DNA from: an uncultured Enterobacteriaceae bacterium
GTDB lineage: Bacteria > Pseudomonadota > Gammaproteobacteria > Burkholderiales > SG8-39
Length of the DNA stretch: 64,000 nt
Reading direction: 5' to 3'
Assembly: GCA_964393745.1 (NCBI GenBank)
Contig: CAYMVA010000032.1
Location: forward strand, 69,943 to 133,942
The notes below the pieces were generated by a model, which searched no databases, was not told where the DNA came from, and saw only the letters and a list, made by a program, of their open reading frames with translations. The translations under genes and the position numbers were made by a program. Below, one piece after another: positions 17,816 through 51,855 of this stretch (within the stretch, counting starts at the first letter, position 1; each line of letters starts with the position of its first letter).

Positions 17816-17818
17816 CAA

Positions 17819-18694: not shown

Positions 18695-18697
18695 ACA

Positions 18698-18942: not shown

Positions 18943-19022
18943 CGTGGTCCCTTTCGCGACGCGCAGCGCGAAGCATACCGCCCGGCGCCGAATTCTGCTG
19001 CGGTCAACGGACGGCCGCGCGC

Positions 19023-20731: not shown

Positions 20732-20838
20732 GCCCGCATGGTGCCCGCGCGCGGGGCGCGATTCCATCCGGATCTTGCGATCGTTCAAGCGCGGGGGGAT
20801 CTTAAGGGGGGCAGACGCGATTTGCGGGAACCCCCTTT

Positions 20839-31886: not shown

Positions 31887-32444
31887 TCAGGGGCTTTTCC
31901 GATCCGAAGTGGGCGCGGACGGTGTCTGAGTTGCAGCGGCCGGAACAGGAGCGGCACCGCCCGGCGCGGCGGGTATGGGCTTGGCGGCCTGCGCTGCCGG
32001 GGTGAAGATGAACTTCCAGTCCGCGTACGTCTCGGCCTTGTCGAAGCCCTGTTGCGCGGGCTTGAATCCCGCGGCCTTGATGGGCTTCGCTTCCGAGCGG
32101 CTGTAGACGCCCATCACGCCGCCGTCGGGTGCCTTGACGATGCCCCACTCGTCGCTTCCCGTGAGCGGATCGGCATAGAGCCGCCGCAGGTAGCGCTCGG
32201 TGCCGGGCTTGCGTGGATCTTTAAGCAAGTCGCCGAGCGCGCGCGGATACTGGCGCGGGCCGCTCAGGTAATAACGCTCGATCGCCTTGCGGTAGTGACT
32301 GCCAACGTGCAGCAGCTCCGCTTCCTTTTCGCGCAGCGCAACCGTATGCCAGACCTCGCCGGTGAGCGCGAGCCCCAGGCCCATGATCGCGACCACGAAA
32401 AGGATCGTGAGATAGGTGAAGCCGGCAACGCGCCTCACTACCAT
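31887..32444 (-). CDS. Prepilin-type N-terminal domain protein (atypical pseudopilin with a Pro/Ala-rich tail)
   Basis: Leader and hydrophobic segment VAGFTYLTILFVVAIMGLGLALTGE. It is the last gene of the T2SS-like operon. Confidence 0.6.
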   Translation of the reverse strand: MVVRRVAGFTYLTILFVVAIMGLGLALTGEVWHTVALREKEAELLHVGSHYRKAIERYYLSGPRQYPRALGDLLKDPRKPGTERYLRRLYADPLTGSDEWGIVKAPDGGVMGVYSRSEAKPIKAAGFKPAQQGFDKAETYADWKFIFTPAAQAAKPIPAAPGGAAPVPAAATQTPSAPTSDRKSP

Positions 32445-32812
32445 TCCCCGTAGGCGGTGCCGTCGCTCGCTTTGCCCTGGGCACCGCTTTTGACGTCGAA
32501 CACTCCGCTTTTCTGCGGATCCTCGGGCGGCACCGCTACCCAGGTGGTGGCGCTTTCGGTGATCGGATCCACCGGCACCTTGCGCAGGTACTTTTCGCCG
32601 GCGAGCGCCTCGATGGATTCCGCGTACTTGCCCTTGTCGGCGTAGTACTTGCCGATGGCGTCGCGCATCTGGTAGAGGTTCTCCTTAAGCACCGCCTCCT
32701 TCGCCCGGTCGTGGCTGCCGAAGTAGCGCGGCACGGCGAGCAGCAAAAGCGTCGCGACGATCGCGAGGACCACCAGCAGCTCGATCAGCGTGAAGCCCGC
32801 GCGGCGCCTCAT
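32438..32812 (-). CDS. GspG-like pseudopilin
   Basis: MRRRAGFTLIELLVVLAIVATLL prepilin motif. 124 aa, ending YGEW. Confidence 0.75.
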   Translation of the reverse strand: MRRRAGFTLIELLVVLAIVATLLLLAVPRYFGSHDRAKEAVLKENLYQMRDAIGKYYADKGKYAESIEALAGEKYLRKVPVDPITESATTWVAVPPEDPQKSGVFDVKSGAQGKASDGTAYGEW

Positions 32813-32830
32813 TTTCCCCTCAATTTCCTC

Positions 32831-33325
32831 TCACCACTCCCGGTAAGGCCGGCCATTGATGCCCTTGGCCGCCGCGAGCGAGTAGACGTCGAACACGTCG
32901 TCGCCTTCCTTGGGCTCGTCGGGCGGGCTGGCGTAGCTGCGCTTGCCCCAGGTGGCCGCGGCCGCTAGCTCCGCGTCGGTGGAAAATGGATCGCGCGGCA
33001 TGCGGCGCAGGAAATAGATCCGTTCCTTGCGCGCGGTCTTCTGGTCCTCGACGCCTTCGACCAGGTCCTCGAGCCGCTTGGGGTATCCCGACTCTCCGAC
33101 CCGCTTCAGGATGCGGCCGTCGTCCGAAGCCTGCTTGTAGCCGTCGATCGCCTCGCGTATGTCGCGCAACGCGCGGCGCAGGTCCTGTTCTTTCGCGCGC
33201 TGCACCACGAGCTCGTTGAGCGGCACCGCCACGGTGGCGAGCAGCGCGACGATCGCCACCGTGATGAGAAGCTCGATGAGCGTGAAGCCGCCGGCGCGGC
33301 TCGCCCGCGCTGCACGCCGGATCAT
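32831..33325 (-). CDS. GspG-like pseudopilin
   Basis: RAGGFTLIELLITVAIVALLA prepilin motif. 164 aa, ending YREW. Confidence 0.75.
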   Translation of the reverse strand: MIRRAARASRAGGFTLIELLITVAIVALLATVAVPLNELVVQRAKEQDLRRALRDIREAIDGYKQASDDGRILKRVGESGYPKRLEDLVEGVEDQKTARKERIYFLRRMPRDPFSTDAELAAAATWGKRSYASPPDEPKEGDDVFDVYSLAAAKGINGRPYREW

Positions 33326-35232
33326 TGCGATGGCGCGGCGGGCTTCACGCCACCGAACGGGACCATGTCCGATCCGGAGGGAGCAGGCGGCGGCGCCGGT
33401 TTCGGCTGCGCCGGCTGCTGCGCTGGCGGCTTCGTGACCGGCGGGCCGAGTACAACCCCTGCCGGTGCCGCGCCGGCGGACGCTTCAGTGCCGGCGGAGA
33501 ATTCGACCGAGCGCACGTCCGGCCGCGCCAGCGTGCGCACCAGCCGCGGCGTGATGAGAAGCACGATCTGGGTCTTGATCGCCTCGTCGCGCGTCGAGGA
33601 GAAAAGCCGCCCCACCACTGGAAAGTCGCCGACGCCCGGCACGCGGTTCGCGGTGCGGCGATCCTCGTCGCTGATCAGCCCGGCAAGAATCTGGGTCTCC
33701 CCGTCGTGCAGCCGTAGCGAGGTGGCGGCGTTGCGAGTGCCGATCTGATAGACGAGGGTACCGGAGCTGATGCTGCGCACCTCCTTCACGATATTGCTCA
33801 CTTCCAGCGAAACCTTGATGCCGATCTCGTCCTCCAGGTAGATGAGCGGCTCGACTTCGAGCTTGAGGCCGATGTCGAGATAGCTCACATTTTCGGAGAC
33901 GAAACCCCCGGTGGCCGCGGCCGTGGTGGTGATCACCGGCACGCGCTCGCCGATGTGGATCTTGGCTTTTTCCTTGTTCTTGACGCGGATCCTGGGATTG
34001 GCGAGCACGCTGGTGGTGCCGTCCTGCTGGCGCAGGTTGAGCAGGAAAAGCGGGTTTGGAAAAATCAGGCGAACCAGCTGCGAACTGCGGTTGAGCCATT
34101 CGGGAAGCGTCACCACGCCCGGAATGCCGGCGGCACCGACCAGGCTCCAGGCCACCGAATCCGGATACTTCAGCCCCAGCTCGAGCAGCCGGTTCGAGCC
34201 CACCTCCAGCACCTCGACTTCGAGCACCACTTCGGGCTCGGCGAGGTCCTGCGCCGCGATCAGCCGCTCGGCCAGGCGCACCGCATCCGGCGTGTCCTTG
34301 ATCACCAGCAGGTTGATCTTCTCGTCTATGAAAATGTCGCGCGTCTTGACCACCGTGCGGATCATGGTGGCGGTCTGCTTGACGTCGGCATTGGCGAGAT
34401 AGAAGCTCTTCACCACCAGCTCCTGGTACTCGCGCAGCTTCGCCGGGGTGTTCGGGAACACGATCACCGTGTTGTCGTTGAGGATCTTCTGCTGCAACTG
34501 ATTAGGAAGCAGGAGCAGCCGAACCGCCTCCTCGAAGGTGGTGTCGCGCACCGCGACACTGGTCCTCTGGTCGGCGCGGACATCCTTGTCGAAGACGAAA
34601 TTGACGCCGTAGGCGCGCGACAGCACGTCGAATGCGGCGCGCAGGGTGACGTCGCGCAGCTCGAGCGAAATCGGCTGGCTCGATGAAGGCTTGAGCCGCA
34701 CGCTGGCGAGCGCCGGCCGGATGAGCTTCTCGTCGATGCGGCGCTGCAACCGCCGCGCCTCGCGCTGCGCCGGGTTCTCGGCCAGCACCGGGCGCAGCGC
34801 GTCCTGCGCCTCGCGGTACTTCTCGGCAGCGAACAGCTTCTCCGCGTCGGCGACCAGCGTTCGATGGCGCTTGTCGGCCTCGATCTGCGCCAGTCCGGCA
34901 CGGGCACGGGGATTCACGCCGTCGTACTTGAGCACGCGCTGGTACAGCATCGCAGCGGCTTCGAATTGTCCCGCCAGGCGCATGGTCTCTGCCTGGCTCA
35001 GCCACTGCGCCATCAGCAGATCGCGCTGGCGGAAATACTCAATGCGCAGCGCGTTGCTGCCCGGATCGTCCTTGGATGCCTTGTCGAGCATCGCCAGCGC
35101 TTCCTCGCCGCGGCCCTGCTCAATTTGCTGGCGCGCGTCGTTGATCACGGAATAGGTGGTGCAAGCCGCAAGCAGCAAGCAAGCGGCGAGCAGCGCAAGC
35201 AGGGAATTGGGAGATGGGCGGTGGGGTTTCAT
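33322..35232 (-). CDS. Secretin (GspD/PilQ family) lipoprotein with a TPR-like N-terminal extension
   Basis: Lipobox LLLAAC, then about 190 aa of helical TPR-like repeats, then N-domains and a secretin core (VPGVGDFPVVGRLFS). The ATG at 35232 has an aaggtga RBS. An alternative start lies at 35253. Confidence 0.88.
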   Translation of the reverse strand: MKPHRPSPNSLLALLAACLLLAACTTYSVINDARQQIEQGRGEEALAMLDKASKDDPGSNALRIEYFRQRDLLMAQWLSQAETMRLAGQFEAAAMLYQRVLKYDGVNPRARAGLAQIEADKRHRTLVADAEKLFAAEKYREAQDALRPVLAENPAQREARRLQRRIDEKLIRPALASVRLKPSSSQPISLELRDVTLRAAFDVLSRAYGVNFVFDKDVRADQRTSVAVRDTTFEEAVRLLLLPNQLQQKILNDNTVIVFPNTPAKLREYQELVVKSFYLANADVKQTATMIRTVVKTRDIFIDEKINLLVIKDTPDAVRLAERLIAAQDLAEPEVVLEVEVLEVGSNRLLELGLKYPDSVAWSLVGAAGIPGVVTLPEWLNRSSQLVRLIFPNPLFLLNLRQQDGTTSVLANPRIRVKNKEKAKIHIGERVPVITTTAAATGGFVSENVSYLDIGLKLEVEPLIYLEDEIGIKVSLEVSNIVKEVRSISSGTLVYQIGTRNAATSLRLHDGETQILAGLISDEDRRTANRVPGVGDFPVVGRLFSSTRDEAIKTQIVLLITPRLVRTLARPDVRSVEFSAGTEASAGAAPAGVVLGPPVTKPPAQQPAQPKPAPPPAPSGSDMVPFGGVKPAAPSQ

Positions 35233-35236
35233 GGGT

Positions 35237-35776
35237 TCACCTTGTCTCGGCATCGTCGCCCGGCCGGAAATGCAGCGTCAGGCGCAACTGCGCGTCGAGC
35301 TGCTGGTCTGCGATTTTCTTGCGCTCGAAGCGTAGCGCGTCCACCGACGCAACCGGCATGTTCTTCAGCACTGCGTCGAGGAACGAGCGGATCTGGGCAT
35401 AGCTGCCTCGCACTGGCAGCGTGATGCGGTAGGCGATGGGACCCGCGTTGCGCTTCTCCAGGCGGTACTCGCCCTGCATGAGCTCCAGCTTGGATGCGCG
35501 CGCGATCGCGTAGACGCTCTCCAGCTCGTCGGTCAGGCGCTCGATCGGCGGCAGCAGGCCGTAGAAGCGCCGCAAGTCGTCGGCGCGGTCGTCGACCGCC
35601 ACGGGGCGGAACGGCCCGCGGCTGCGCAGCCGCTCGGCAGCTTCGCGCTGCGCGGAAAGCTCCTGCTGCGCCGGGCGCAAGGCGGTGAAATAGAACTGCA
35701 GGCAAAAGAACAGCACCCCAAGGCCAAGCACACCGGCGGTGCCCAGTTTGCCGAGCATCGCCTGAAGGGGGTTCAC
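35237..35776 (-). CDS. Single-pass membrane protein, GspM (subtype b)/PilO-like
   Basis: GTG at 35776 overlaps the upstream stop (GTGA). There is an N-terminal TM helix (GVLGLGVLFFCLQFYF) followed by a periplasmic domain. The call rests on position and topology. Confidence 0.5.
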   Translation of the reverse strand: MNPLQAMLGKLGTAGVLGLGVLFFCLQFYFTALRPAQQELSAQREAAERLRSRGPFRPVAVDDRADDLRRFYGLLPPIERLTDELESVYAIARASKLELMQGEYRLEKRNAGPIAYRITLPVRGSYAQIRSFLDAVLKNMPVASVDALRFERKKIADQQLDAQLRLTLHFRPGDDAETR

Positions 35777-36294
35777 GGCGCCCCCTTCAGCTGCGCCTGC
35801 ACCGTGAACTGGATCGGGCGGTTCGGGTCTTCCATCTGTACCTGGTGGCTCACCACGTGCACATCGGCAAGGGTTTCTGCCGCGCCCAGCCGGCGCAGGT
35901 AATCGAGCATTGCCTGCTGCGTGCGCGCCTCGGCGCCGAGCCGCAGCTGCCGCTGTGGGGCGTCCGGCTGCAGCTGCAGGATGGCGACATCGCTGGTGGT
36001 TGCGCCCTCGACCGTCTCGATGATGGTGCCCCAGGGCAGGGCGAGCTGGCGCAATACCGCCTCTACGCTTTTTGCCTCCTCTTCCAGCCGGCGCGGCGTA
36101 GCTTGCGCCGCCTGCCTGCCCGGACCGAGCAATCGCTGCCCGGCCTCGATCCGGTCCAGCTCGAGCTTCGCTTCGCGATAACGCTCGATGAGCAATCCCG
36201 CCGCTGCGATGGAAATGGCGAGCACCACCAGGCCCAGCGCCCGCGGCCCGCGTGGCACGGCGATGTAATCGAGCTCGAGGCGCCGCAGCGTCAT
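35773..36294 (-). CDS. Single-pass membrane protein, PilN/GspL-periplasmic-domain-like
   Basis: Short cytoplasmic N-terminus, TM helix ALGLVVLAISIAAAGLLI, coiled segment and a periplasmic domain. ATGA overlap with the upstream gene. Confidence 0.45.
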   Translation of the reverse strand: MTLRRLELDYIAVPRGPRALGLVVLAISIAAAGLLIERYREAKLELDRIEAGQRLLGPGRQAAQATPRRLEEEAKSVEAVLRQLALPWGTIIETVEGATTSDVAILQLQPDAPQRQLRLGAEARTQQAMLDYLRRLGAAETLADVHVVSHQVQMEDPNRPIQFTVQAQLKGAP

Positions 36295-37124
36295 TGGGCG
36301 GTGAGGGCCATTGCGTAGCGCGCATCCTCGAGCGGCGCGAACCCGGCCAGGGGCGGCAGCGTGAGGCCGAGCAGCTTCCAGCCGTGTGCCTCGGTGGAGT
36401 CAGCTTTAGACGCGGCCGGCGCGTGAACATGCGCGCTATGCGGGGCGGGCTCGGTGCCGGCGCGCAGCTGCTGCCGATCGAGCAGCGCGGCCCAGTCCTC
36501 GGCGCCGGGATACTCGCCGCGCAAGGTCTGCACCGACGCCCATTGCTGCGCAGCGACCAGCGCCAGGCACACCCGTTGCGGCTCTACCAGCAGCAGCCAG
36601 CCATCTTCCTTCGCCATTGCGCTGCGCCACTGGTTGAACGCCGACATCAGGTACGGCTGCACCGAAACCAGCCGCGCCTTGCCCGCCCGCGGAAAGCACG
36701 CGCCGATCGCCGGGATGAGCGCCGCATCCACTGCGCTTGCCAGGCGGGGCGCGCCGCGCGCTCCCTCGCCCAGGCGAACGTCCCAGCCCTTGGCGCGCTC
36801 GCCGTAGATGCGCGCGAAGTGGAAGCGCGCCAGCGCAAGCTGTTCCTCCCGGCCGGTGAGCGCGGCGTCCGAGTTCACGATCGCGTAGCGCACGAAATGG
36901 TTGGAGAGCACGACCGTGGCGTCCAGGCGCTCGCCGCGCAGTGGCCCGGCGGCTTCGGCCAGCGCCGCAACCGCGCCTTGCCACGGCTCGGCACCGAACG
37001 CGGGATCGCAATCGACCGCATGCTTGGCGATGACGCGGGGACGCAGGCCGCCCGCGATGCGCAGCAGCGCGACCGCGCCGGGCGCGAGCGACACCAGCAG
37101 GCGGTCACGCCACAAACGTGACAC
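36291..37124 (-). CDS. Hypothetical cytoplasmic protein, possibly the GspL/PilM-like ATPase-docking component
   Basis: 277 aa with no TM helix, sitting between the GspE gene and the PilN-like gene. GTG start overlapping the gspE end. The assignment rests on position only. Confidence 0.4.
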   Translation of the reverse strand: MSRLWRDRLLVSLAPGAVALLRIAGGLRPRVIAKHAVDCDPAFGAEPWQGAVAALAEAAGPLRGERLDATVVLSNHFVRYAIVNSDAALTGREEQLALARFHFARIYGERAKGWDVRLGEGARGAPRLASAVDAALIPAIGACFPRAGKARLVSVQPYLMSAFNQWRSAMAKEDGWLLLVEPQRVCLALVAAQQWASVQTLRGEYPGAEDWAALLDRQQLRAGTEPAPHSAHVHAPAASKADSTEAHGWKLLGLTLPPLAGFAPLEDARYAMALTAQ

Positions 37125-38799
37125 GGTTGATCTCCGCCAGCGTGGTTTCGCCTTTTCTCACCGCCTCGAACGCCGCCTCGCGCAAGAAGCGCGTGCCGTT
37201 GGCGTGCGCCGCCAGCTTGATCTGGCGAACCGGCGCTCGCTGGGCGATCAACTCGCGGATGTCGTCATTGAGGATCAGCAGCTCGGCGATCGCCTTGCGC
37301 CCCTTGAAGCCTGCGCCGCGGCATTCGCGGCAGCCGCGGCCGGCGCGGAAGCGGAAACCGCTTGCCGCCGCAGCGTCCAGTCCCGACTCGCGCAACAGCG
37401 CCGCGTCGGGCTTGTCGTCTTCGGCGCAGTGCGGGCAGACCAGCCGCACCAGGCGCTGCGCCAGGATCGCGTTCAACGCCGATACGAAGCTGTACAGGTC
37501 CACATTCATGTGCATGAAGCGGCCGATGACATCGAACACGTTGTTGGCGTGCACCGTGGTGAAGACCAGGTGACCGGTGAGCGCCGACTGCACCGCGATG
37601 TTCGCAGTCTCCGCGTCGCGGATCTCGCCGACCATGATCTTGTCCGGGTCGTGGCGCAGGATCGAACGCAGGCCGCGCGCGAAGGTGAGGCCCTTTTTCT
37701 CGTTCACCGGGATCTGCAGCACCCCGGGGAGCTGGTACTCGACCGGGTCCTCGATGGTGACGATCTTGTCCTGGCCGTTATTGATCTCGGTGATCGCCGC
37801 GTAAAGCGTGGTGGTCTTGCCGCTGCCGGTCGGGCCGGTGACCAACAGCATGCCGTAGGGCTCATGCGACAGGCGCCGCAGCACGCGCACCTCGTCCGCG
37901 GAGAAACCGAGGCTGTCGAGCGAGAGCTGCTGCTTGGTCGCCTCGTAGAGAGATTGCTTGTCGAGCACGCGCAGCACCGCGTCCTCGCCATGGATGCTCG
38001 GCATGATCGAGACGCGGAAGTCCACCGCGCGGCCGTGGTCTATGGCCTTGAAACGCCCGTCCTGCGGCACGCGCCGCTCGGTGACATCGAGCTCGGCCAG
38101 CACCTTGACGCGCGCGATCGCCTGCTCCGCCTGCTGCGTGTCCTGGATCTGCTTGATCTGCGACAGGATGCCGTCGATGCGGAACTTGATGGTGAGCCCG
38201 GCAGCGACGGTCTCGAGATGGATGTCGCTGGCGCCTATCTTGAGCGCATCGCGCAGTGTCGAGCGCACCAGGCGCACCACTTCGCTCGTCTCCTCGCTGA
38301 TCGCCTTGAGCGAGAGGTCTTCGGCCCGGTCATGCTCCTGGCCTGCTCCGGCGACTTCGGCCTGGACGGTGTCCAGCGCGCGCAGCGTCTCCTCGTGGCC
38401 GGCGAGGAAAGCGACCAGGTCGCCCCGGTGCACCAGGCGCCAGGCGAACGGCGCCGTGAGCCGCTCTTCTGCCCATGCCGCGAGCTCGGCCGAGAACGGA
38501 TCGTCGGTGGCGAGCAGAAGCTCGCCGCCCTGGGCGCGCAGCAAGGCGCAGCTACGCTGCGCGCACTCGTTGAACGGCAGCACGTCGAATGCCGGCGCGG
38601 CGCGCCGCAATTCATCCATGCTCATCACTTCCACGCGCACCGTCGCGCCAAGTCGTTCGGTGAATGCATCCGGCTCGAGCGCCAGCTTTTCCTCTAGCAC
38701 GTCCACCAGGCGGCGCCGGCCGGCGGCGGCGGCGGCGCGCGCCGCAGCCGTCACCTCGCCCGGAATCGGCTGCGGACTCTGCGTGCCCGGCGCGTTCAC
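37105..38799 (-). CDS. gspE: Type II secretion / type IV pilus assembly ATPase (GspE/PilB family)
   Basis: Walker A GPTGSGKTTT, Asp box, Walker B IMVGEIRD, His box TGHLVFTTVHANN and a tetracysteine CPHC...CREC. Confidence 0.93.
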   Translation of the reverse strand: MNAPGTQSPQPIPGEVTAAARAAAAAGRRRLVDVLEEKLALEPDAFTERLGATVRVEVMSMDELRRAAPAFDVLPFNECAQRSCALLRAQGGELLLATDDPFSAELAAWAEERLTAPFAWRLVHRGDLVAFLAGHEETLRALDTVQAEVAGAGQEHDRAEDLSLKAISEETSEVVRLVRSTLRDALKIGASDIHLETVAAGLTIKFRIDGILSQIKQIQDTQQAEQAIARVKVLAELDVTERRVPQDGRFKAIDHGRAVDFRVSIMPSIHGEDAVLRVLDKQSLYEATKQQLSLDSLGFSADEVRVLRRLSHEPYGMLLVTGPTGSGKTTTLYAAITEINNGQDKIVTIEDPVEYQLPGVLQIPVNEKKGLTFARGLRSILRHDPDKIMVGEIRDAETANIAVQSALTGHLVFTTVHANNVFDVIGRFMHMNVDLYSFVSALNAILAQRLVRLVCPHCAEDDKPDAALLRESGLDAAAASGFRFRAGRGCRECRGAGFKGRKAIAELLILNDDIRELIAQRAPVRQIKLAAHANGTRFLREAAFEAVRKGETTLAEINRVTFVA

Positions 38800-39983
38800 C
38801 GCAAACTCCCTGCGAGTTCGAAGATCGGCATGTACATGAGGATCACGATGGCGCCGATCACCAGCCCGATCACCGCCATCAGGATGGGCTCGAACAGGCG
38901 CGTGAACCAGTCCACCCAGCGCGAGATCTCTTCGTCATGGAACGCGGCGATGCGGTCCATCATCTCTCCCATGTTGCCGCTCTGCTCGCCCACCGCGAGC
39001 ATGCGCAGGGCGACCGGCGTGGTGAGTCCGTTGGCTTCCATCGAGGCGGAGACCTGCCGCCCTTCGCTGATCGCGCGGCGTGCAGCCGCCAGGCGTTCGC
39101 GCAGCGCCGGGTGCAGCAGCTCCCCGCCCATGTCGAGCGCCGCGACGAGCGGCATGCCCCCGCGCAGCAGCATGCCGATGGTGCGGTAGAAGCGCGCCAG
39201 CTGATACACCTTCATGCGCTCGCCGATCCCCGGGAAGCGCCACAGTGCGTCCGAGACCTTGGCGCGAACGGGGCCCGCGCGCAAGGCGTAAATCGCGCCG
39301 ATCACCAATGCGCCGAGTATGCCGAGCACGAGCGCGCCATTGCCTTCGACCAACTGCCCCCATGACAGCAGCGCCCGCGAGAACAGCGGCAGGTCGGAGG
39401 CGCGCTCCTCGTAGATGCGGCTGAAACGCGGCACCACGTAGAACATGAGGAACAAGCTCACCAGGCCGCCGACGCCGAGCAGCAGCAGCGGATAGATCGA
39501 GGCGTTCTGCAGGCGCTTGCGCAGCGCTTCGAGCTGGCTCTGGTAGGCGACATAGCGCCCGAGTGCCGGGCCGAGGTCGCTGGTGCGCTCGGCGGCGCGC
39601 ACCGTCGCGACGTAGAGCGGAGAAAACACCTGCGGCAACTGCCCGAGCGCGGCGGAGAAAAGCTGCCCCTGGCGCAGCGTGCCGGCAATGCGCCCGAGCG
39701 CGGCCCGAAAATCGTCTCGCCGTTCGGTCTCGCCGAGGGTCTCGACCGCGTCCACCAGCGGCAGCCCGGCGCCGAGCAACACCAGCAGTTGCTGCGAGAA
39801 AAGCACCACCGGAAAGCGCTCGCCGGAGCGCCAAGCCTGGAGCCAACCCGACTTGCGGCGCACCGCGAGCACGGTGTAGCCGCGGATTTCGGCTTGCTGC
39901 CGGGCGCCCGCCTCGTCGAGCGCCTGGAAGTCGAGCGACTCGATGTGGCCGTCCTGGGCGACTGCTTTGAGTTGGTAGCGCAT
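38796..39983 (-). CDS. gspF: Type II secretion inner-membrane platform protein (GspF/PilC family)
   Basis: 395 aa from the ATG at 39983. It has duplicated GspF domains and three TM segments. The part of ORF 38796..40532 upstream of 39983 overlaps gspG and is discarded. Confidence 0.9.
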   Translation of the reverse strand: MRYQLKAVAQDGHIESLDFQALDEAGARQQAEIRGYTVLAVRRKSGWLQAWRSGERFPVVLFSQQLLVLLGAGLPLVDAVETLGETERRDDFRAALGRIAGTLRQGQLFSAALGQLPQVFSPLYVATVRAAERTSDLGPALGRYVAYQSQLEALRKRLQNASIYPLLLLGVGGLVSLFLMFYVVPRFSRIYEERASDLPLFSRALLSWGQLVEGNGALVLGILGALVIGAIYALRAGPVRAKVSDALWRFPGIGERMKVYQLARFYRTIGMLLRGGMPLVAALDMGGELLHPALRERLAAARRAISEGRQVSASMEANGLTTPVALRMLAVGEQSGNMGEMMDRIAAFHDEEISRWVDWFTRLFEPILMAVIGLVIGAIVILMYMPIFELAGSLR

Positions 39984-40003
39984 TGGCTTGGCCGAGGGTG
40001 CGC

Positions 40004-40438
40004 TCAGTGATTGCTGAGGTCGGCGTTCTCGCCGCTGCCGCCGGGCGTGCCGTCCTTGCCGTACGAGATCAGGTCGAAGTCGCCTTTCTCTCCCGGGGCG
40101 CGGTAAGCGTACGGCTTGCCCCAGGGATCGAGCGGCACGGCTTTCTTGAGATACGGTCCGTTCCATTTCGGCTCGTTCTGCGGGCGCTCCAGCAGCGCGT
40201 TCAGGCCCAATTCGGTGCCCGGATAGCGGCCGGTGTCGAGCCGGTATTGGTCGAGCGCTTTCTCGAAAGCATCGATCTGCGCTTTGGCGGTGTTGACCTC
40301 GGATTTCCCGATCTGGCCGAAATAACGCGGCGCGACGTAGCCCACCAGAAGCCCGATGATCGCGACCACCACAAGCAGCTCGAGCAGCGTGAAACCAGCC
40401 CCCTGTCTGCGCGGCGCGAAACGATTGTTGCGGTGCAC
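40004..40438 (-). CDS. gspG: Major pseudopilin GspG
   Basis: GAGFTLLELLVVVAIIGLL prepilin motif plus a GspG-type body (NGPYLKK...DPWGKPYAYRAPGEKGDFDLISYGKDGTPGG). GTG start. Confidence 0.9.
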   Translation of the reverse strand: MHRNNRFAPRRQGAGFTLLELLVVVAIIGLLVGYVAPRYFGQIGKSEVNTAKAQIDAFEKALDQYRLDTGRYPGTELGLNALLERPQNEPKWNGPYLKKAVPLDPWGKPYAYRAPGEKGDFDLISYGKDGTPGGSGENADLSNH

Positions 40439-40558
40439 AAGCCCCTCTTAAATTCCATGGTAGTTCAAGCAGATCACAATATGACCGTGCGCGCTGCACC
40501 GCGCAAGTGGAGTCCTCCCGCAGGTGCTGCATCGCGCATAGAATGAGACCCTAGGATA

Positions 40559-41527
40559 ATGCGCGCCGCCACCCGACGACAGGCAATTTTATTCGCGGTT
40601 CTCGCTGCAATCGTCGCCTACCTAGCGTTCGATTCCGGTGGCGGCGGACTATGGACCCCGAGCGCTTCCCCGGACGCTGCGAGGCGCGAAGCGGGCAAGG
40701 ACGCCGATTCCGGCCCTTACGGCGTGGGTGCGGAAAAGGGCGCGGAAAAGCGCGCCGGGCGATTTGCGCTGCCGGACAGGGTGCCGCTGGGCGAGCCGCG
40801 CGCGGCGCTGTTCGGCTCGCACACCTGGCAGCCGCCGGCCCCCAAAGTTGGCGCGGCGCCTGCCGCCCCCGCAGTTCCGGCGATGCCCTACAGGTTCGCC
40901 GGCAAGCTGCTGCAGGAAGGCAAGCTGCAGGTCTTTCTCGCGAAGGGCGATGAGGTGGTGCCGATTCGCCAGGGGGAGACGCTCGATGGCGCCTACCGGG
41001 TCGAGTCGATCGGTGAAGCCCAGATCACGCTGCTGTACCTGCCGCTCAAGCACAAGGAATCGATCCCGGTCAATTCTTCGCTGCCGCTCGCCGAGGCTCC
41101 CAAGGCGCGAGACACGGCGAAAGCGGCGCAGCTGCTGTGGGAAGGCCCGCAAAGCGTCAAGCAAGGAACGCAGTTTTCTGTTGCGCTGCGCGTCACCTCG
41201 GCGCAACCGGTGTACGCCTCGCCGATGCAGTTCCAGTTCGACCCGAAGCTGCTCGAGACGGTGGCGGTGAAGCCGGGCAGGTTCTTCAGCCAGGACGCGC
41301 GCAATTTCAGCTACCGCGTCAATCCGGAGGGCTCGATCTTCATCGGCGCTTCCAAGCGCAGCCACACGCTCGCCGACGACGCGGAATTCCTGGTGCTGAC
41401 GTTCAGGCCCCTCAAGCCGGCCCCGGTCGCGGAACTGTCGATCGCGTCCATGAACCTGCAGGGGCCTGCGGGCCGCGCCATCGCGTTCGATCCGCTGGGG
41501 GCGTTCAAGACGGCGATCACGCCGTGA
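40559..41527 (+). CDS. Membrane-anchored protein with a GspC/PilP-like middle region and a cohesin-like C-terminal domain
   Basis: N-terminal TM helix AILFAVLAAIVAYLAF. A beta-rich segment (YRFAGKLLQEGKLQVFLAKGDEVVPIRQGETLDGAYRVESI) follows. The last 130 aa or so resemble cohesin modules (GTQFSVALRV...MQFQFDPKLLETVAVKPG...FLVLTFRPLK). Confidence 0.5.
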   Translation: MRAATRRQAILFAVLAAIVAYLAFDSGGGGLWTPSASPDAARREAGKDADSGPYGVGAEKGAEKRAGRFALPDRVPLGEPRAALFGSHTWQPPAPKVGAAPAAPAVPAMPYRFAGKLLQEGKLQVFLAKGDEVVPIRQGETLDGAYRVESIGEAQITLLYLPLKHKESIPVNSSLPLAEAPKARDTAKAAQLLWEGPQSVKQGTQFSVALRVTSAQPVYASPMQFQFDPKLLETVAVKPGRFFSQDARNFSYRVNPEGSIFIGASKRSHTLADDAEFLVLTFRPLKPAPVAELSIASMNLQGPAGRAIAFDPLGAFKTAITP

Positions 41528-41576
41528 CCGGGCTTGCTCGCATGCCTGAGTTTCATATTCTAGGAGGAGTACCGAC

Positions 41577-43898
41577 GTGAATACTTTTGGATCAGGCAGC
41601 GCGGTCCAGCGCCGTTATCGCGGCATTTCCCGCTACCTGCTTTTGTTTTTGGCGTCGCTGCTTTACGCGACGTGGCCGGCACAGGCCGCCGCCTCCCAGG
41701 AAGAAATGCAGGCGGGAATACGGTCGTTTCGGAACGGCGACTTCACGCAAGCGCTTCAGCACTGGTCGGTCGCGGCGAGTGCCTACGAAGCGGCAGGCAA
41801 CCACGAGGGACAGGCGCTGGCGTTGGTGCGCGGCGCCGAGGCGGAACTGAGCCTTGGCCGCAGCCCGAACGCCTTCGACAAGCTGCAGAAGGCGCAAACC
41901 CTTGCGCAGCGCACTGACAATCAATCGCTGCTGGCAGCCGTCGAGGGCGGTCTCGGCAATGCCTATCTGGCTACCGGTCGCGAGGCCGACGCCGAGCGCA
42001 TGCTGCGTTCGAGCATCGATCGCGCGCGCAAGACGCAGAATGCCGAGGCGGCCGCGCAGGGACTTAACAACCTGGGGAACCTTTTTGCCCTGCAAGGGCG
42101 GTTCGCCGACGCCAGCCGCGTGTACCGGGAAGCGGTCGAGGCGGCATCCAAGGCCGGCAACAAGAGCATCGCCATCCGCGCTTCGACCAACCACGCGCGC
42201 GCTTTGATGGACGATGGCCGGTACGGCGAAGCGATCACCTTGTTGTCGGTTCTGGGTGACCAAACCCGCACCATGGAGCCCTCGCACGAGAAGGCGTACG
42301 GGCTGATCAGCATCGGCCGGCTCTATGTGCGCTTGCTGGGGTCCGGCATTGAGCCCATCGGCGAGTGGAGTGCGCGCGCGCACGCGGCGTTGAACGATGC
42401 GCTGAGCGTTGCCGACGCCATCCAGGACCCGCGCGCTCGCTCGTATGCGCTCGGCTACCTGGGCGAGCTCTACGAGCTGGCCGCGCGCAACGAAGAGGCG
42501 CTGCAATTTACGCAGCGGGCGATCATGGCCGCGCAGATGGCCGATGCCCCGGAGATCCTTTACCTATGGCAATGGCAAAGTGGACGGCTGCTGAAGGCGC
42601 AGGGCAGGACCGAGCAGGCGATTCTCGCCTATCAGCATGCGGTCAATACGCTGAGGTCCGTGCGCCAGGACCTGGCGGCCCGCGGCTCGCGCACGACGTT
42701 TCGCCAATCCGTAGGGCCGGTATTTTTCCAGCTCGCGGACCTGTTGCTCGAGCACTCGGGAACGCTGAGCGATCCGAAGCGGGTGGCGCAGCACCTGGTC
42801 GATGCACGCAGTGCCGTCGAGGTGCTCAAGGGCGCGGAGCTGCAGGACTACTTCCAGGACGACTGCGTGACCGCGCTGCGCGCGAGGACCGCCGGCATCG
42901 ACCGGCTCGCCTCGAACACCGCCGCGCTCTATCCGATCATCCTGCCGGACCGCCTGGAGCTTTTGCTGAGCATGCCCGACGGCATGAAGCGCTTCACGAC
43001 CCGTGTCGGCGCTCAAGAACTCACCAACGAGATCCGGGCGTTCCGCGCGCGCCTCGAGAAACGAACCACGCACCAGTACGTGCCGCATGCGCAAAAGCTG
43101 TATGACTGGCTCATCCGCCCCATTGCGGCCGAGTTGGAGAAGGCCGGCATCGACACGCTCGTGATCGTGCCCGATGCGGCGCTGCGCACCATCCCGCTCC
43201 CGGCGCTGCATGACGGCAAGCAGTTCCTGGTCGCGCGCTTTGCCGTTGCGACCACACCCGGCTTGACGCTGACCGATCCGCGGCCGATACCGCGGGAGAA
43301 AACGAAGGTGATGCTCAACGGCCTGACCGAGTCGGTGCAGGGTTTTTCGTCCCTGCCGTACGTGGCCGAGGAGCTGCAAAACGTCCAGAAACTCTACGGC
43401 GGGACGATCCGCGAAAACAAGCAGTTCACCGTTGAGGCGATGGAAAAAGACCTGGAGCAAACGCCCTACCAGATCGTGCACATCGCCTCGCACGCGCAGT
43501 TCGACAGCGACGTCAACAAGACCTTCCTGCTCACCTACGACGGCAAGCTCGGCATGAACCGCCTCGAGCAGATGCTGGGCATCTCGAAGTTTCGCACCGA
43601 CACCGTGGAGCTGCTGACGCTGAGCGCGTGCGAGACCGCTGTCGGCGACGATCGCGCGGCGCTGGGTCTCGCGGGCGTGGCGCTCAAGGCGGGGGCGCGC
43701 AGCGCGCTCGCCAGCCTCTGGACCGTCAACGACCCGGCTTCGGCGCAACTGGTGTCCGAGTTCTACCGCGGGCTGCAGAATCCGGCGAACTCGAAGGCCA
43801 AGGCGCTGCAGCAGGCGCAACTCGGCCTGCTGAACGACGCGCGCTACCGGCACCCGAATTACTGGAGCGCGTTCCTGCTCATCGGCAATTGGCTCTAG
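41577..43898 (+). CDS. Secreted/periplasmic TPR-repeat protein with a C-terminal CHAT (caspase-like) domain
   Basis: GTG start with an aggagg RBS. Signal peptide LLFLASLLYATWPAQAAAS, then TPR-like repeats. The CHAT dyad contexts are YQIVHIASHAQF (His) and LLTLSACETAVG (Cys), and the protein ends YWSAFLLIGNWL. Confidence 0.88.
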   Translation: MNTFGSGSAVQRRYRGISRYLLLFLASLLYATWPAQAAASQEEMQAGIRSFRNGDFTQALQHWSVAASAYEAAGNHEGQALALVRGAEAELSLGRSPNAFDKLQKAQTLAQRTDNQSLLAAVEGGLGNAYLATGREADAERMLRSSIDRARKTQNAEAAAQGLNNLGNLFALQGRFADASRVYREAVEAASKAGNKSIAIRASTNHARALMDDGRYGEAITLLSVLGDQTRTMEPSHEKAYGLISIGRLYVRLLGSGIEPIGEWSARAHAALNDALSVADAIQDPRARSYALGYLGELYELAARNEEALQFTQRAIMAAQMADAPEILYLWQWQSGRLLKAQGRTEQAILAYQHAVNTLRSVRQDLAARGSRTTFRQSVGPVFFQLADLLLEHSGTLSDPKRVAQHLVDARSAVEVLKGAELQDYFQDDCVTALRARTAGIDRLASNTAALYPIILPDRLELLLSMPDGMKRFTTRVGAQELTNEIRAFRARLEKRTTHQYVPHAQKLYDWLIRPIAAELEKAGIDTLVIVPDAALRTIPLPALHDGKQFLVARFAVATTPGLTLTDPRPIPREKTKVMLNGLTESVQGFSSLPYVAEELQNVQKLYGGTIRENKQFTVEAMEKDLEQTPYQIVHIASHAQFDSDVNKTFLLTYDGKLGMNRLEQMLGISKFRTDTVELLTLSACETAVGDDRAALGLAGVALKAGARSALASLWTVNDPASAQLVSEFYRGLQNPANSKAKALQQAQLGLLNDARYRHPNYWSAFLLIGNWL

Positions 43899-43967
43899 GC
43901 CGCGCATGAACGACGTTGTCTTAACGCGTATACTGCTTCGGTTGACCAAACCAAGGAGGGTCAGGTC

Positions 43968-44720
43968 ATGAAATCTTCAGTCGCCAAAGTCTTTCTCGGC
44001 GTCGCCACTGCCGTGGCGTTAGTCGTAACCACGGCCACCGCCCAGGATTCGAGGAAACCGTCCGGACAGCCCGATGCCCAAGCGCCGGCGACGGGGTCTG
44101 TTGCATACAAGCCGCCCATGCGGGGCGCACCGCTCACGCGCGTGGGCGGAGGCACCCGCAGCGTAGGTGCCAGCGTCCTGACGCTGAACGTGCTCGCGCC
44201 TGGGGAGACTGGCTACACGATGCAGGAAAAGCCGACCATCTACTGGTATGTGTCGGACACGGTCAACAGCCCGGTGGAGCTGACGATCACCAGCACCGCG
44301 AGCCTGCAGGACGCGGCGACGCCGGCGTTCGAGATCACCCTGAAACCGCCGGTCGCCAAGGGCTTTCACGCATTGCGGCTGGCGGACCATGGCATCGCGC
44401 TCAAGCCCGATGTCGAGTACCAGTGGTTCGTCGCGGTGGTGCGCAACCCCGCGCAGCGCTCGCACGACGTGATTGCCGGCGGCACCATCAAGCGGATCGC
44501 CGACAGCGGTGCGGTCGAGCCCAGGCTCAAGCAGACCTCGCAGGCGCAGTGGGCGGCGGTGTATGCGGAAGCGGGCATCTGGTACGACGCGATCGACCAG
44601 TTGTCGAAGCAGATCAGCGCCGACCCCGCCAATCGCCAGCTGCGCGCGCAACGCGCCGCGCTTCTGGAGCAGGTCGGCTTGCGCGAAGCGGCGGCCTTCG
44701 ACCGCAGCTCCGGGAGCTAG
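43968..44720 (+). CDS. DUF928 family secreted protein
   Basis: Signal peptide, then PPMRGAPLTRVGGGTRS, PTIYWYV, YQWFVAV and AGIWYDAIDQL, as I recall for DUF928. RBS aaggaggg. Confidence 0.75.
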   Translation: MKSSVAKVFLGVATAVALVVTTATAQDSRKPSGQPDAQAPATGSVAYKPPMRGAPLTRVGGGTRSVGASVLTLNVLAPGETGYTMQEKPTIYWYVSDTVNSPVELTITSTASLQDAATPAFEITLKPPVAKGFHALRLADHGIALKPDVEYQWFVAVVRNPAQRSHDVIAGGTIKRIADSGAVEPRLKQTSQAQWAAVYAEAGIWYDAIDQLSKQISADPANRQLRAQRAALLEQVGLREAAAFDRSSGS

Positions 44721-44741
44721 GGAGCCTCCGCTCTAGTCCTG

Positions 44742-46469: not shown

Positions 46470-46488
46470 TTTGGACGAACCCGCGCCC

Positions 46489-49923: not shown

Positions 49924-49971
49924 AGAGTTCTCCTCACCTGCCCAGGCCCCGCGTTGTCAATGGCACCGCAG

Positions 49972-49998
49972 TCCTGCGCCCCCTTCGGGAGCGCAGGA
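49972..49998 (-). other. Strong stem-loop between the Cys-rich gene and tpsA (intra-operon RNA structure or partial terminator)
   Basis: tcctgcgc (49972..49979) pairs with gcgcagga (49991..49998). There is no U-tract. Confidence 0.4.
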
Positions 49999-50010
49999 TT
50001 CGCTGCTAGG

Positions 50011-51654: not shown

Positions 51655-51678
51655 GGCGCCTCTCCTTGACTTCGGAAA

Positions 51679-51706
51679 ATTGCAAGGTATTCAAACTAGT
51701 ATTCAA
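51679..51706 (-). promoter_or_regulatory. Candidate sigma70 promoter for the Cys-rich gene
   Basis: On the minus strand: TTGAAT (51706..51701), a 16-nt spacer, then TGCAAT (51684..51679). It overlaps an 8-bp direct repeat TTGAATAC x2. Confidence 0.3.
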
Positions 51707-51855
51707 GCGGTTCCCCTCCCAGGGGAATTAATGCACCTTATTCCCTTCGTCCGACTGGGTCAAGGGATGCATGACCTAGGACATCCAGCCCGCCGGCACC
51801 CAACCCGGGCTGCTATGCTGCGCCGCGCCACCCCACACTGCGGAGTACCCCCGCC

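What the first reader, a model, noticed from the sequence alone, without database searches (positions are those of the whole stretch)
40559..41527. GspC/PilP-like membrane protein ending in a cohesin-like module, divergent from gspG and co-operonic with the CHAT gene
The 322-aa protein has one N-terminal TM helix, a low-complexity linker and a beta-rich segment resembling the secretin-interacting HR/PilP fold. Where classical GspC carries a PDZ or coiled coil, it carries about 130 aa with a cohesin-like sequence pattern. It starts 120 bp from gspG on the opposite strand and ends 50 bp before the CHAT gene, so it physically links the secretion operon to the CHAT/DUF928 operon. A cohesin in the substrate-recognition position would imply cargo selection by a dockerin-like partner, which is not an established T2SS mechanism.
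Basis: inference. Interest (0 to 1): 0.7.

Follow-up and report, generated by a model that had tools for sequence, protein, structure and literature searches.

The report
Secretion-machine coupling protein carrying a cohesin
This gene encodes the membrane-anchored protein that couples a type II-secretion-like machine to its outer-membrane pore, and it ends in a cohesin, a protein-docking module known from cellulosomes, which relatives of the machine carry on the pore protein instead.

Summary
ORF 40559-41527 (+) encodes a 322-aa protein with four parts: an N-terminal membrane helix, a disordered Pro/Ala linker, a 67-residue beta domain, and a C-terminal cohesin. The best structural matches of the beta domain are all PilP or GspC-HR domains. 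The cohesin matches Pfam at E=5e-11 and cellulosomal cohesins by fold (TM about 0.8).

It is the only PilP/GspC-type gene found in the window. It lies 120 bp from gspG, head to head with the operon gspG-F-E-pilM/N/O-like-secretin-3 pseudopilins.

In 17 of 25 related loci the same operon lies within 10 kb. In more distant Burkholderiales a short PilP-only gene sits between the pilO-like and secretin genes. There the cohesin is fused to the C-terminus of the secretin (116 of the 120 closest secretins).

The cohesin is therefore a movable but recurrent module of this machine type, and some relatives lack it.

The link to the CHAT gene is not general. The gene downstream of the cohesin gene varies (CHAT, RHS/YD, CHRD, beta-helix, multicopper oxidase) and usually encodes a protein with a signal peptide.

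No dockerin or shared tag was found, so the ligand is unknown. I read this as a new variant of a known kind and found no description of it in the papers I could search.

The parts
40559..41527 (+). Gene for the 322-aa PilP/GspC-like protein with a C-terminal cohesin
   Evidence: ORF and translation; family of homologues; AlphaFold model with mean pLDDT 77.6
40568..40633 (+). N-terminal transmembrane anchor (residues 4-25). Arg-rich residues precede it, so the N-terminus is probably cytoplasmic. There is no lipobox Cys.
   Evidence: Helix 4-25 in the model; sequence MRAATRRQAILFAVLAAIVAYLAF; orientation from the positive-inside rule is an inference
40634..40873 (+). Disordered Pro/Ala-rich linker. 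It holds a conserved motif LFGSxSWQPP (residues 84-93; F85 invariant and W90 nearly invariant).
   Evidence: pLDDT 37-56; 28% mean pairwise identity in the linker against 53% in the pre-HR stretch; invariant and nearly invariant columns
40874..41074 (+). PilP / GspC-HR-type beta domain (residues 106-172), the predicted secretin-binding module
   Evidence: The 13 best Foldseek PDB matches are all PilP, PulC-HR, GspC-HR or LspC; the family profile matches PilP 2ivw at E=0.098; 60% mean pairwise identity
41075..41125 (+). Second flexible linker (residues 173-189), 10-76 aa long across the family
   Evidence: pLDDT about 53-55; length range and 26% identity
41126..41524 (+). Cohesin domain (residues 190-322)
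   Evidence: Pfam PF00963 E=5e-11, 43.4 bits against a cut-off of 24.1; all 50 family members scanned match it; the 50 best Foldseek matches are all cohesin or cohesin-like modules, e.g. 2vo8 at E=3e-9 and TM 0.79; most conserved part of the protein at 64% identity
40439..40558 (.). 120-bp divergent intergenic region between gspG and the cohesin gene
   Evidence: Coordinates; no sigma-70 consensus match
40004..40438 (-). gspG, major pseudopilin, first gene of the machine operon
   Evidence: Pfam T2SSG E=5e-42; NCBIfam TIGR01710 170.5 bits against a cut-off of 88.85
38796..39986 (-). gspF/pilC-type platform protein (start approximate)
   Evidence: Pfam T2SSF E=3e-53; the GspF model aligns from residue 186 of the 578-aa maximal ORF
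37105..38799 (-). gspE/pilB-type ATPase
   Evidence: Pfam T2SSE E=4e-120; scores fall below both the GspE and the PilB equivalog cut-offs
36291..37124 (-). 277-aa protein in the PilM/GspL position, with no family match
   Evidence: Conserved in position and sequence in related loci; no Pfam or NCBIfam hit
35773..36294 (-). PilN-like protein
   Evidence: Pfam PilN E=4e-3, below the cut-off; conserved position
35237..35770 (-). PilO/GspM-like protein (start approximate)
   Evidence: Pfam T2SSM_b E=5e-4 and PilO E=0.012; NCBIfam GspM E=2e-5, below the cut-off
33322..35253 (-). Secretin with a lipobox-like signal sequence, then TPR, STN/N0, N1 and secretin domains. This copy has no cohesin.
   Evidence: Pfam Secretin E=2e-37, STN, Secretin_N and TPR hits, no Cohesin hit; sequence LLAACLLLAAC
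31887..33325 (-). Three pseudopilin-type genes (32831-33325, 32438-32812, 31887-32444) that end the operon
   Evidence: Prepilin N-terminal motif and weak GspG/H matches for the first two; the third has a GFTYLT-type N-terminus by eye and no family hit
41577..44720 (+). Downstream TPR-CHAT protease gene (41577-43898) and DUF928 gene (43968-44720), both apparently with signal peptides. They occupy a slot after the cohesin gene whose content varies between relatives.
   Evidence: Pfam CHAT E=5e-62 and DUF928 E=3e-34; the same neighbours occur only in L008 and L012

Best explanation
The protein is the PilP/GspC-type subunit of the T2SS-like machine encoded head to head with it. Shown: it has a membrane anchor, a flexible linker, a PilP/HR-fold domain and a cohesin. 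No other PilP/GspC-type gene was found in the window. Its relatives are nearly always encoded beside the same operon. Inferred by analogy with PilP-PilQ and GspC-GspD: the N-terminal helix anchors it in the inner membrane. The conserved LFGSxSWQPP stretch of the linker contacts the PilN/PilO-like proteins. The HR domain binds the STN/N0 domain at the base of the secretin, so about a dozen copies ring the periplasmic entrance of the pore. Each copy holds a cohesin on a tether of 10-76 residues, in the place where classical GspC holds a PDZ domain or a coiled coil. I think the cohesin most likely acts as a periplasmic docking module for one conserved ligand. That ligand could be a feature shared by exported proteins, or an accessory factor that delivers them. 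It is probably not a canonical dockerin. The genes immediately downstream of the cohesin gene vary and mostly encode proteins with signal peptides (here TPR-CHAT and DUF928). They are candidate clients.
For: Domain identities. Only copy of the HR and cohesin domains in the window. The pilO-like gene and the secretin gene overlap, so no PilP gene lies between them. Synteny: the operon gspG-F-E-277aa-pilN-pilO-secretin-pseudopilins lies within the fetched flanks in 17 of 25 distinct loci. In 12 it is divergent from gspG and in 5 it is convergent at the pseudopilin end. Gene-fusion evidence: in Noviherbaspirillum, Duganella, Pseudoduganella and Massilia a 169-186-aa PilP-only gene sits directly upstream of the secretin gene, and the secretin ends in a cohesin (Pfam E=2e-8 to 6e-10). 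116 of the 120 closest secretins carry Pfam Cohesin. The window cohesin matches those secretin-borne cohesins by tblastn at E about 1e-9, whereas the family profile matches a cellulosomal cohesin only at E=0.67. This points to shuffling of one module within the system. The cohesin is the most conserved segment (64% mean identity; linkers 26-28%), which implies a conserved ligand. Downstream genes usually encode proteins with signal peptides, of kinds typical of secreted proteins: CHAT, CHRD, SGL propellers, RHS/YD, NosD beta-helix, a Zn-protease-like protein and a Tat multicopper oxidase. In two MAGs the operon keeps a PilP-only gene. The cohesin-bearing paralogue lies on another contig, next to YD-repeat genes in one MAG and to other genes in the second.
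Against: No ligand was identified. No Pfam dockerin was found, and there is no dockerin-type calcium-loop pair in 808 kb. The downstream proteins share no motif or C-terminal tag. Cohesin similarity does not track the downstream gene type: the window protein is 54-56% identical to the CHAT-linked L008 and L012 and 55-57% identical to the non-CHAT L001 and L005. This argues against neighbour-specific recognition. Several loci have no plausible cargo gene downstream (L005, L020, L023, L025, L027). Hydrogenophaga and Leptothrix have the operon with no detectable cohesin in the locus, so the cohesin is dispensable for the core machine. The Pfam T2SSC and PilP models do not match, and the structural E-values for the HR domain are modest (6e-3 to 0.3). 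All contacts are inferred, and none was modelled or measured.
Confidence: 0.55

Rival explanations
1. The cohesin is a structural brace of the machine, not a cargo receptor. It would bind another subunit, for example the TPR domain at the secretin N-terminus, a pseudopilin or a neighbouring cohesin, and so stabilise or align the ring between the inner-membrane platform and the secretin.
For: The module is attached to a structural subunit in both arrangements, either the secretin C-terminus or PilP/GspC. It is highly conserved whatever the neighbouring genes are. No cargo tag or dockerin was found.
Against: Some systems of the same type show no cohesin in the locus (Hydrogenophaga, Leptothrix). 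In two MAGs the operon keeps a PilP-only gene while the cohesin-bearing paralogue sits elsewhere, beside YD-repeat genes in one of them. That pattern fits an accessory module better than a core structural one. The long and variable tether (10-76 aa) is also unusual for a fixed brace.
Confidence: 0.25
2. The cohesin-fold domain binds a non-protein ligand, such as peptidoglycan or an envelope or secreted polysaccharide. It would then anchor the machine to the cell wall, as AMIN domains do for PilQ and as GspA/B do in some T2SSs.
For: The beta-sandwich fold is generic, and no protein partner is evident. Its position on the secretin or on PilP matches where wall-anchoring domains occur in related machines (general knowledge, not tested here).
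Against: The sequence matches the Cohesin HMM specifically, and the 50 best structural matches are all cohesin or cohesin-like modules, with no carbohydrate-binding modules among them. To my knowledge, characterised cohesins bind proteins.
Confidence: 0.1
3. The protein belongs functionally to the downstream CHAT/DUF928/two-partner-secretion genes, for example as a membrane anchor for the CHAT protease. Its position next to the T2SS-like operon would be incidental.
For: A 49-bp spacer with a ribosome-binding site and no terminator makes co-transcription with CHAT likely. The same arrangement recurs in L008 and L012.
Against: Only 3 loci (the window, L008 and L012) have CHAT downstream, whereas 17 of 25 related loci have the T2SS-like operon next door. 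The HR domain has the secretin-binding fold. Without this gene the operon has no PilP/GspC gene in the window. In relatives the two domains are encoded inside the operon.
Confidence: 0.04

Closest known systems
GspC (T2SS inner-membrane component, e.g. ETEC GspC, Klebsiella PulC, Legionella LspC)
   Same: An N-terminal membrane helix, a Pro-rich linker, a small HR beta domain with the fold that binds the secretin N0 domain (Foldseek matches to 6hcg_e, 3oss_C and 7oio), then a second C-terminal interaction domain. It is encoded with gspG, gspF, gspE and a secretin gene.
   Different: The Pfam and NCBIfam GspC models do not match. The C-terminal domain is a cohesin, not a PDZ domain or coiled coil. 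The gene is transcribed divergently from the operon. The rest of the platform looks like PilM/N/O rather than GspL/M.
PilP (type IVa pilus alignment subcomplex PilMNOP-PilQ)
   Same: The best structural matches are PilP (2y4y, 2ivw, 2lc4, 4av2, 3jc8), and PilP gives the best, though weak, profile match. In distant relatives the cohesin-less orthologue lies immediately upstream of the secretin gene, after the PilO-like gene where that gene was detected, as in pilMNOPQ.
   Different: It is anchored by a transmembrane helix, not a lipid. It carries an extra C-terminal cohesin. The machine has a GspG-type major pseudopilin that passes the T2SS equivalog cut-off.
Cohesin modules (cellulosomal type I/II; non-cellulosomal ones such as Archaeoglobus fulgidus 2xdh and Clostridium perfringens 2vo8/2jh2)
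   Same: It scores above the Pfam Cohesin cut-off and has the same beta-sandwich fold, with TM 0.72-0.82 normalised to the target.
   Different: It is predicted to be periplasmic in a Gram-negative bacterium and is tethered to a secretion machine. No dockerin was found nearby. Sequence identity to solved cohesins is 9-20%.
Secretin-cohesin fusion proteins of Oxalobacteraceae and other Burkholderiales (e.g. WP_194714297 of Noviherbaspirillum soli). Databases name them 'cohesin domain-containing protein', 'GspD' or 'PilQ', and I found no study of them.
   Same: The same machine type and gene set, and a homologous cohesin (24-27% identity in the alignment, tblastn E about 1e-9). The PilP-like domain is also homologous.
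   Different: There the cohesin is on the C-terminus of the secretin and PilP is a separate gene of about 170 aa inside the operon. Here the secretin has no cohesin and the PilP-like protein carries it.

Membership tests
Cohesin (Pfam PF00963) | Sequence match to the family HMM above the curated cut-off | tested here: met
   43.4 bits against a cut-off of 24.1, E=5e-11, residues 199-289; all 50 family members scanned match
Cohesin (Pfam PF00963) | Cohesin-type beta-sandwich fold | tested here: met
   pLDDT 84-98 over residues 190-322; the 50 best Foldseek PDB matches are all cohesin or cohesin-like modules, with E down to 3e-9 and TM to target up to 0.82
Cohesin (Pfam PF00963) | Binds a dockerin partner | tested here: inconclusive
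   No Pfam dockerin in 12 neighbouring proteins and no paired calcium-loop motif in 808 kb of loci. Whole genomes could not be searched and binding cannot be tested with these tools.
GspC (T2SS protein C; Pfam T2SSC PF11356) | Sequence match to the family HMM | tested here: not met
   No GspC/T2SSC model is listed for the window protein at E<=10 or among the families listed for the 50 members at E<=1. NCBIfam gives no hit.
GspC (T2SS protein C; Pfam T2SSC PF11356) | N-terminal membrane helix followed by an HR domain with the fold that binds the secretin | tested here: met
   Helix 4-25. The HR-domain model matches PulC-HR 6hcg_e (TM to target 0.71), GspC-HR 3oss_C (0.76) and LspC 7oio. Binding itself was not tested.
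GspC (T2SS protein C; Pfam T2SSC PF11356) | C-terminal PDZ domain or coiled coil | tested here: not met
   The C-terminal domain is a cohesin
GspC (T2SS protein C; Pfam T2SSC PF11356) | Encoded with T2SS core genes | tested here: met
   Adjacent to gspG/F/E and a secretin gene in the window and in 17 of 25 related loci
PilP (Pfam PF04351) | Sequence match to the family HMM | tested here: not met
   No Pfam PilP hit. The family profile matches PilP chains in the PDB only weakly, at E=0.098-0.6.
PilP (Pfam PF04351) | PilP beta-sandwich fold | tested here: met
   Best Foldseek match 2y4y_B, E=5.8e-3, probability 1.00, rmsd 2.5 A over 64 columns; 10 of the best 13 matches are PilP
PilP (Pfam PF04351) | Lipoprotein encoded between pilO and pilQ | tested here: not met
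   There is no lipobox Cys and the gene lies outside the operon. The cohesin-less orthologues in L028, L032-L035 and L038-L042 do lie immediately upstream of the secretin gene, but they also have membrane helices rather than lipoboxes.
Canonical type II secretion system (the adjacent machine) | GspG-type major pseudopilin, GspE, GspF and GspD each reaching the equivalog cut-off | tested here: inconclusive
   GspG passes (170.5 against 88.85 bits). GspE (465 against 630), GspF (262 against 424) and GspD (141 against 351) fall below their cut-offs and score about equally against the PilB, PilC and PilQ models. The platform genes resemble PilN and PilO/GspM only weakly.

The most novel reading that the evidence does not exclude
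Cohesins act as interchangeable receptors of a distinct, widespread betaproteobacterial T2SS-like machine. The module is mounted either on the secretin or on a PilP/GspC adaptor. Adaptor-cohesin genes travel with cassettes of secreted proteins (TPR-CHAT proteases, RHS/YD toxins, beta-helix proteins, multicopper oxidases) and recruit them, or a shared escort factor, to the pore through a ligand that is not a dockerin. This would be the first defined cargo-docking module of a type II-like secretion system, and a periplasmic role for the cohesin fold.
Probability: 0.3. Interest if true: 0.8.

Novelty: new variant of a known kind. Interest (0 to 1): 0.6.

Why it matters
How type II secretion systems recognise their folded substrates is a long-standing open question. 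GspC and its variable C-terminal domain are among the main suspects. Here the same position holds a well-understood, high-affinity protein-docking fold, and evolution has moved that fold between the GspC/PilP-like subunit and the secretin.

This gives a concrete bait for finding the ligand in culturable relatives such as Noviherbaspirillum, Massilia, Collimonas and Polaromonas. If the ligand is cargo or a cargo escort, it would define a recognition mechanism for this machine class. It would also extend cohesin biology into the Gram-negative periplasm.

If the ligand is a machine subunit, the cohesin is a new structural element linking the inner-membrane platform to the secretin. In either case many database entries named only 'cohesin domain-containing protein' could be reannotated as secretion-machine components.

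Tried and rejected
- **Dockerin partner.** Pfam scans of CHAT, DUF928, TpsA, the 547-aa ORF, the third pseudopilin and seven downstream proteins from related loci gave no dockerin. A strict calcium-loop pattern on the six-frame translation of the window found nothing. A relaxed paired-loop pattern on 808 kb of window plus loci also found nothing. These tests cover neighbourhoods only, not whole genomes.
- **Shared tag among candidate cargo.** All-against-all blastp of 24 downstream proteins found only similarity within families (RHS/YD, SGL). Inspecting N- and C-termini showed signal peptides but no common C-terminal sorting signal.
- **Sequence membership in GspC or PilP.** There were no Pfam or NCBIfam hits, even at permissive E-values. 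Only weak PilP matches came from profiles against PDB sequences. The fold assignment therefore rests on the separate model of the middle domain.
- **Architecture survey with the cohesin-only alignment**. This returned only 34 short fragments and was uninformative. The full secretin query and the representative search were used instead.
- **Literature.** Six searches combining cohesin with T2SS, GspC, secretin, pseudopilin, PilP, type IV filament, secretion system or non-cellulosomal/proteobacteria found nothing relevant. The review on non-cellulosomal cohesins that I recalled is not held.
- **Pseudomonas putida Gsp-related (Xcm) pathway.** I recalled this as a possible relative of the machine. 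It could be found only as a reference, not as text, so no comparison was made.
- **Promoter and terminator scans** of 40300-41800 found nothing on either strand.
- **'Orphan' cohesin genes.** I first read L009 as a cohesin gene without a T2SS. It has the same upstream genes as L010/L045, and its downstream flank is filled with RHS genes up to the end of the contig. The operon may simply lie beyond the contig.
Full report
**1. The observation**

The ORF 40559-41527 (+) is real and encodes 322 aa. The window has 65-70% GC, so long chance ORFs are common. This one, however, has 304 database relatives at E<=1e-3. Most of the 120 listed align over 97-100% of its length at 44-91% identity. It also has 149 representatives of 50%-identity clusters at E<=1e-30.

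An AlphaFold model built on 50 homologues gives this layout:
- an N-terminal helix, residues 4-25;
- a low-confidence linker;
- a beta domain, residues 112-170, with pLDDT above 90;
- a short second linker;
- a beta sandwich, residues 190-321, with pLDDT 84-98.

gspG is 40004-40438 (-), matching Pfam T2SSG at E=5e-42 and passing the NCBIfam GspG cut-off. That leaves a 120-bp divergent spacer. The TPR-CHAT gene starts 49 bp after the stop. The spacer holds an AGGAGG site and no terminator-like hairpin.

**2. The two folded domains**

The C-terminal domain scores 43.4 bits against Pfam Cohesin (cut-off 24.1, E=5e-11). All 50 relatives scanned also match. A Foldseek search of the model against the PDB returns only cohesin or cohesin-like modules among its 50 best matches. 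Examples are 2vo8, 2vn5, 6kgc and the non-cellulosomal Archaeoglobus cohesin 2xdh. E-values reach 3e-9 and TM-scores to the target are 0.72-0.82 for the type I cohesins.

The middle domain matches no Pfam or NCBIfam model. Profiles of the family match PilP only weakly in the PDB sequences (E=0.098-0.6). I therefore modelled residues 84-178 alone (pLDDT above 90 in the core).

The 13 best structural matches of that model are all PilP (2y4y, 2ivw, 2lc4, 4av2, 3jc8), PulC-HR (6hcg_e), GspC-HR (3oss_C) or LspC (7oio). Foldseek probability is about 1.0 for the first eleven, and rmsd is 2.4-3.5 A over 64-70 columns for the crystal and cryo-EM entries. Unrelated folds follow only at E>0.5. The E-values (6e-3 to 0.3) are modest, as expected for a 60-residue domain. 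The fact that one family fills all the best matches is the argument.

**3. Genomic context in the window**

On the minus strand the operon reads as follows:
- gspG;
- a gspF/pilC-type gene;
- a gspE/pilB-type gene;
- a 277-aa gene in the PilM/GspL position;
- a PilN-like gene;
- a PilO/GspM-like gene;
- a secretin gene, whose product has a lipobox-like signal sequence followed by TPR, STN/N0, N1 and secretin domains;
- three pseudopilin-type genes.

The PilO-like gene overlaps the secretin gene, so no PilP or GspC gene lies inside the operon. tblastn with the HR and cohesin domains finds no second copy in the 64 kb. ORF 40559-41527 is therefore the only candidate in the window for the subunit that couples the platform to the secretin.

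**4. Related loci**

I examined six places found by exact protein look-up and 36 loci from one genome per species. I then mapped all window proteins onto them with tblastn. Nearly all come from Betaproteobacteria/Burkholderiales, mostly soil and groundwater MAGs.

Of 25 distinct loci with the fused protein, 17 contain the same operon within the fetched flanks. In 12 it is divergent from gspG, as in the window. In 5 it is convergent at the pseudopilin end.

Among the 8 without the operon:
- L009 shares its upstream genes with L010/L045, and its downstream flank is filled with RHS genes to the end of the contig.
- L019 and L022 come from MAGs whose operon lies on another contig (L029, L030). In L029 the operon keeps a 190-aa PilP-only gene after the third pseudopilin gene.

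**5. The key comparison**

In more distant relatives the homologue of the middle domain is a protein of about 165-190 aa consisting of a membrane helix, a Pro-rich linker and the HR domain. These relatives are Noviherbaspirillum soli, Duganella, Pseudoduganella, Massilia, a Zoogloeaceae MAG, Aromatoleum, Leptothrix discophora and Hydrogenophaga. The gene lies immediately upstream of the secretin gene and, where a PilO-like gene was detected, directly after it. That is the PilP position of pilMNOPQ.

In the Oxalobacteraceae the secretin itself ends in a cohesin after a low-complexity linker. Pfam gives E=2e-8, 6e-10 and 9e-8 for the three secretins scanned, all above the cut-off. This is not a rarity: 116 of the 120 closest relatives of the Noviherbaspirillum secretin carry Pfam Cohesin. 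They include proteins from Collimonas, Polaromonas, Actimicrobium and Paucimonas, variously named 'cohesin domain-containing protein', 'GspD' or 'PilQ'.

The window cohesin matches these secretin-borne cohesins by tblastn at about 1e-9 and aligns with them at 24-27% identity. By contrast, the family profile matches a cellulosomal cohesin only at E=0.67. One cohesin lineage has therefore been moved between two subunits that are expected to bind each other.

The window's secretin has no cohesin. Hydrogenophaga and Leptothrix have neither arrangement in the locus, so the module is recurrent but optional.

**6. What lies downstream**

The CHAT-DUF928-TpsB-TpsA neighbourhood recurs only in L008 (CHAT 73% identical) and L012. 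Elsewhere the genes immediately after the cohesin gene, on the same strand, are:
- a CHRD protein and SGL propellers (L001);
- RHS/YD-repeat proteins (L002, L009/L043, L011, L019);
- a NosD-type beta-helix protein (L010/L045);
- a Zn-protease-like protein (L024);
- a Tat-signal multicopper oxidase (L014);
- unrelated genes or none (L005, L020, L023, L025, L027).

Most of the named proteins have signal peptides and are of kinds commonly secreted. This fits a variable client cassette, but it is only an association.

They share no motif, no C-terminal tag and no dockerin. Cohesin similarity does not follow the neighbour type. The cohesin is the most conserved segment of the protein, at 64% mean pairwise identity. 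The HR domain is at 60% and the linkers at 26-28%, and the second linker varies from 10 to 76 residues. Whatever the cohesin binds is therefore conserved across loci with different neighbours.

**7. Mechanism**

Shown: the domain identities, the absence of a PilP/GspC gene from the operon, the synteny, and the movement of the cohesin between the secretin and the PilP-like protein.

Inferred from established knowledge of PilP-PilQ, PilP-PilN/O and GspC-GspD:
- The helix anchors the protein in the inner membrane with the rest in the periplasm.
- The conserved LFGSxSWQPP stretch may contact the PilN/O-like pair.
- The HR domain binds the STN/N0 ring of the secretin.
- A ring of tethered cohesins sits at the entrance of the pore, where classical GspC carries a PDZ domain or a coiled coil.

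My preferred reading (0.55) is a docking module for one conserved ligand that bears on export, either a shared feature of clients or an escort factor. The main rival (0.25) is a structural brace that binds another subunit. Its fusion to structural subunits and its high conservation favour the brace. Its optional presence, the long variable tether, and the paralogues encoded apart from an operon that keeps its own PilP-only gene favour an accessory role. Binding of a non-protein ligand (0.1) and a function tied only to the CHAT operon (0.04) are less likely.

**8. Comparison with known families and novelty**

The protein works like GspC/PilP but fails the sequence-model test for both. It is not a lipoprotein and has no PDZ domain or coiled coil. 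I therefore call it a GspC/PilP-like subunit rather than a member of either family. It is a member of the Pfam Cohesin family by sequence and fold, but the defining dockerin interaction is untested and no dockerin is nearby.

The machine itself is intermediate. Its GspG passes the T2SS equivalog cut-off. Its ATPase, platform protein and secretin score equally well, and below the cut-offs, against T2SS and type IV pilus models.

Databases already label these proteins as cohesin-containing. Six literature searches found no paper linking a cohesin to a T2SS or type IV pilus machine. The held library is incomplete, so an earlier description cannot be excluded.

I rate this a new variant of a known kind, with interest 0.6. 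The architecture is solid and gives a direct experimental route into T2SS substrate recognition, but the function of the cohesin is still unproven.

Noticed in passing
window 33322-35253 (-): The secretin has a lipobox-like signal sequence (LLAACLLLAAC) and about 180 residues of TPR repeats before its STN/N0 domain. From my own knowledge, this resembles a TPR pilotin lipoprotein of the PilF/PilW type fused to the secretin. The same layout occurs in all related secretins examined.
   Followed up: partly
window 41577-49923: The cluster is a signal-peptide TPR-CHAT protease gene, a DUF928 gene, a TpsB transporter gene (POTRA_2/ShlB, 44742-46730, -) and a TpsA-like gene with a TPS domain (46489-49923, -). 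The whole cluster recurs in L008, and at least the CHAT gene in L012. A literature search for 'DUF928' and 'CHAT domain' listed no paper holding the term DUF928 among its 12 results.
   Followed up: partly
window 38796-40532 (-): The maximal ORF for gspF is 578 aa, but the GspF model aligns only from residue 186. The upstream part overlaps gspG in another frame. The real start is probably near 39986, so the long ORF is an artefact of the high GC content.
   Followed up: partly
L014 7025-9247: A 740-aa multicopper oxidase with a twin-arginine signal lies about 1.2 kb downstream of the cohesin gene. I recall a report that secretion of the Mn-oxidising factor of Pseudomonas putida GB-1 needs a Gsp-related pathway. 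I could find that work only as a citation.
   Followed up: no
L003 7793-8806 and 11929-13011: Two full-length paralogues of the cohesin-bearing protein lie 3 kb apart beside one T2SS-like operon. A PhdYeFM/PIN toxin-antitoxin pair and a DUF4258 gene lie between them.
   Followed up: no
L009 and L015 (records CAYIRZ010000016.1, CAYYZZ010000008.1): MAGs titled 'uncultured Streptomycetaceae bacterium' carry this family. L015 has the Gram-negative secretin operon at 75-88% identity to the window proteins. L009 has the cohesin gene flanked by the same housekeeping genes as a Burkholderiales MAG (L045). The taxonomic labels or the binning of these contigs look wrong.
   Followed up: no
window 48000-52000: GC content falls from about 66% to 57-63% here. 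The 547-aa ORF 50011-51654 (-) has no Pfam match.
   Followed up: no
L002 11638-21080; L043 11450-19151; L011 and L019 about 11250-21000: Signal-peptide RHS/YD-repeat proteins, some with DUF6531, repeatedly follow the cohesin gene. No PAAR or VgrG genes are listed in the two loci with precomputed Pfam annotation (L002, L043), so an export route other than type VI secretion is possible.
   Followed up: partly
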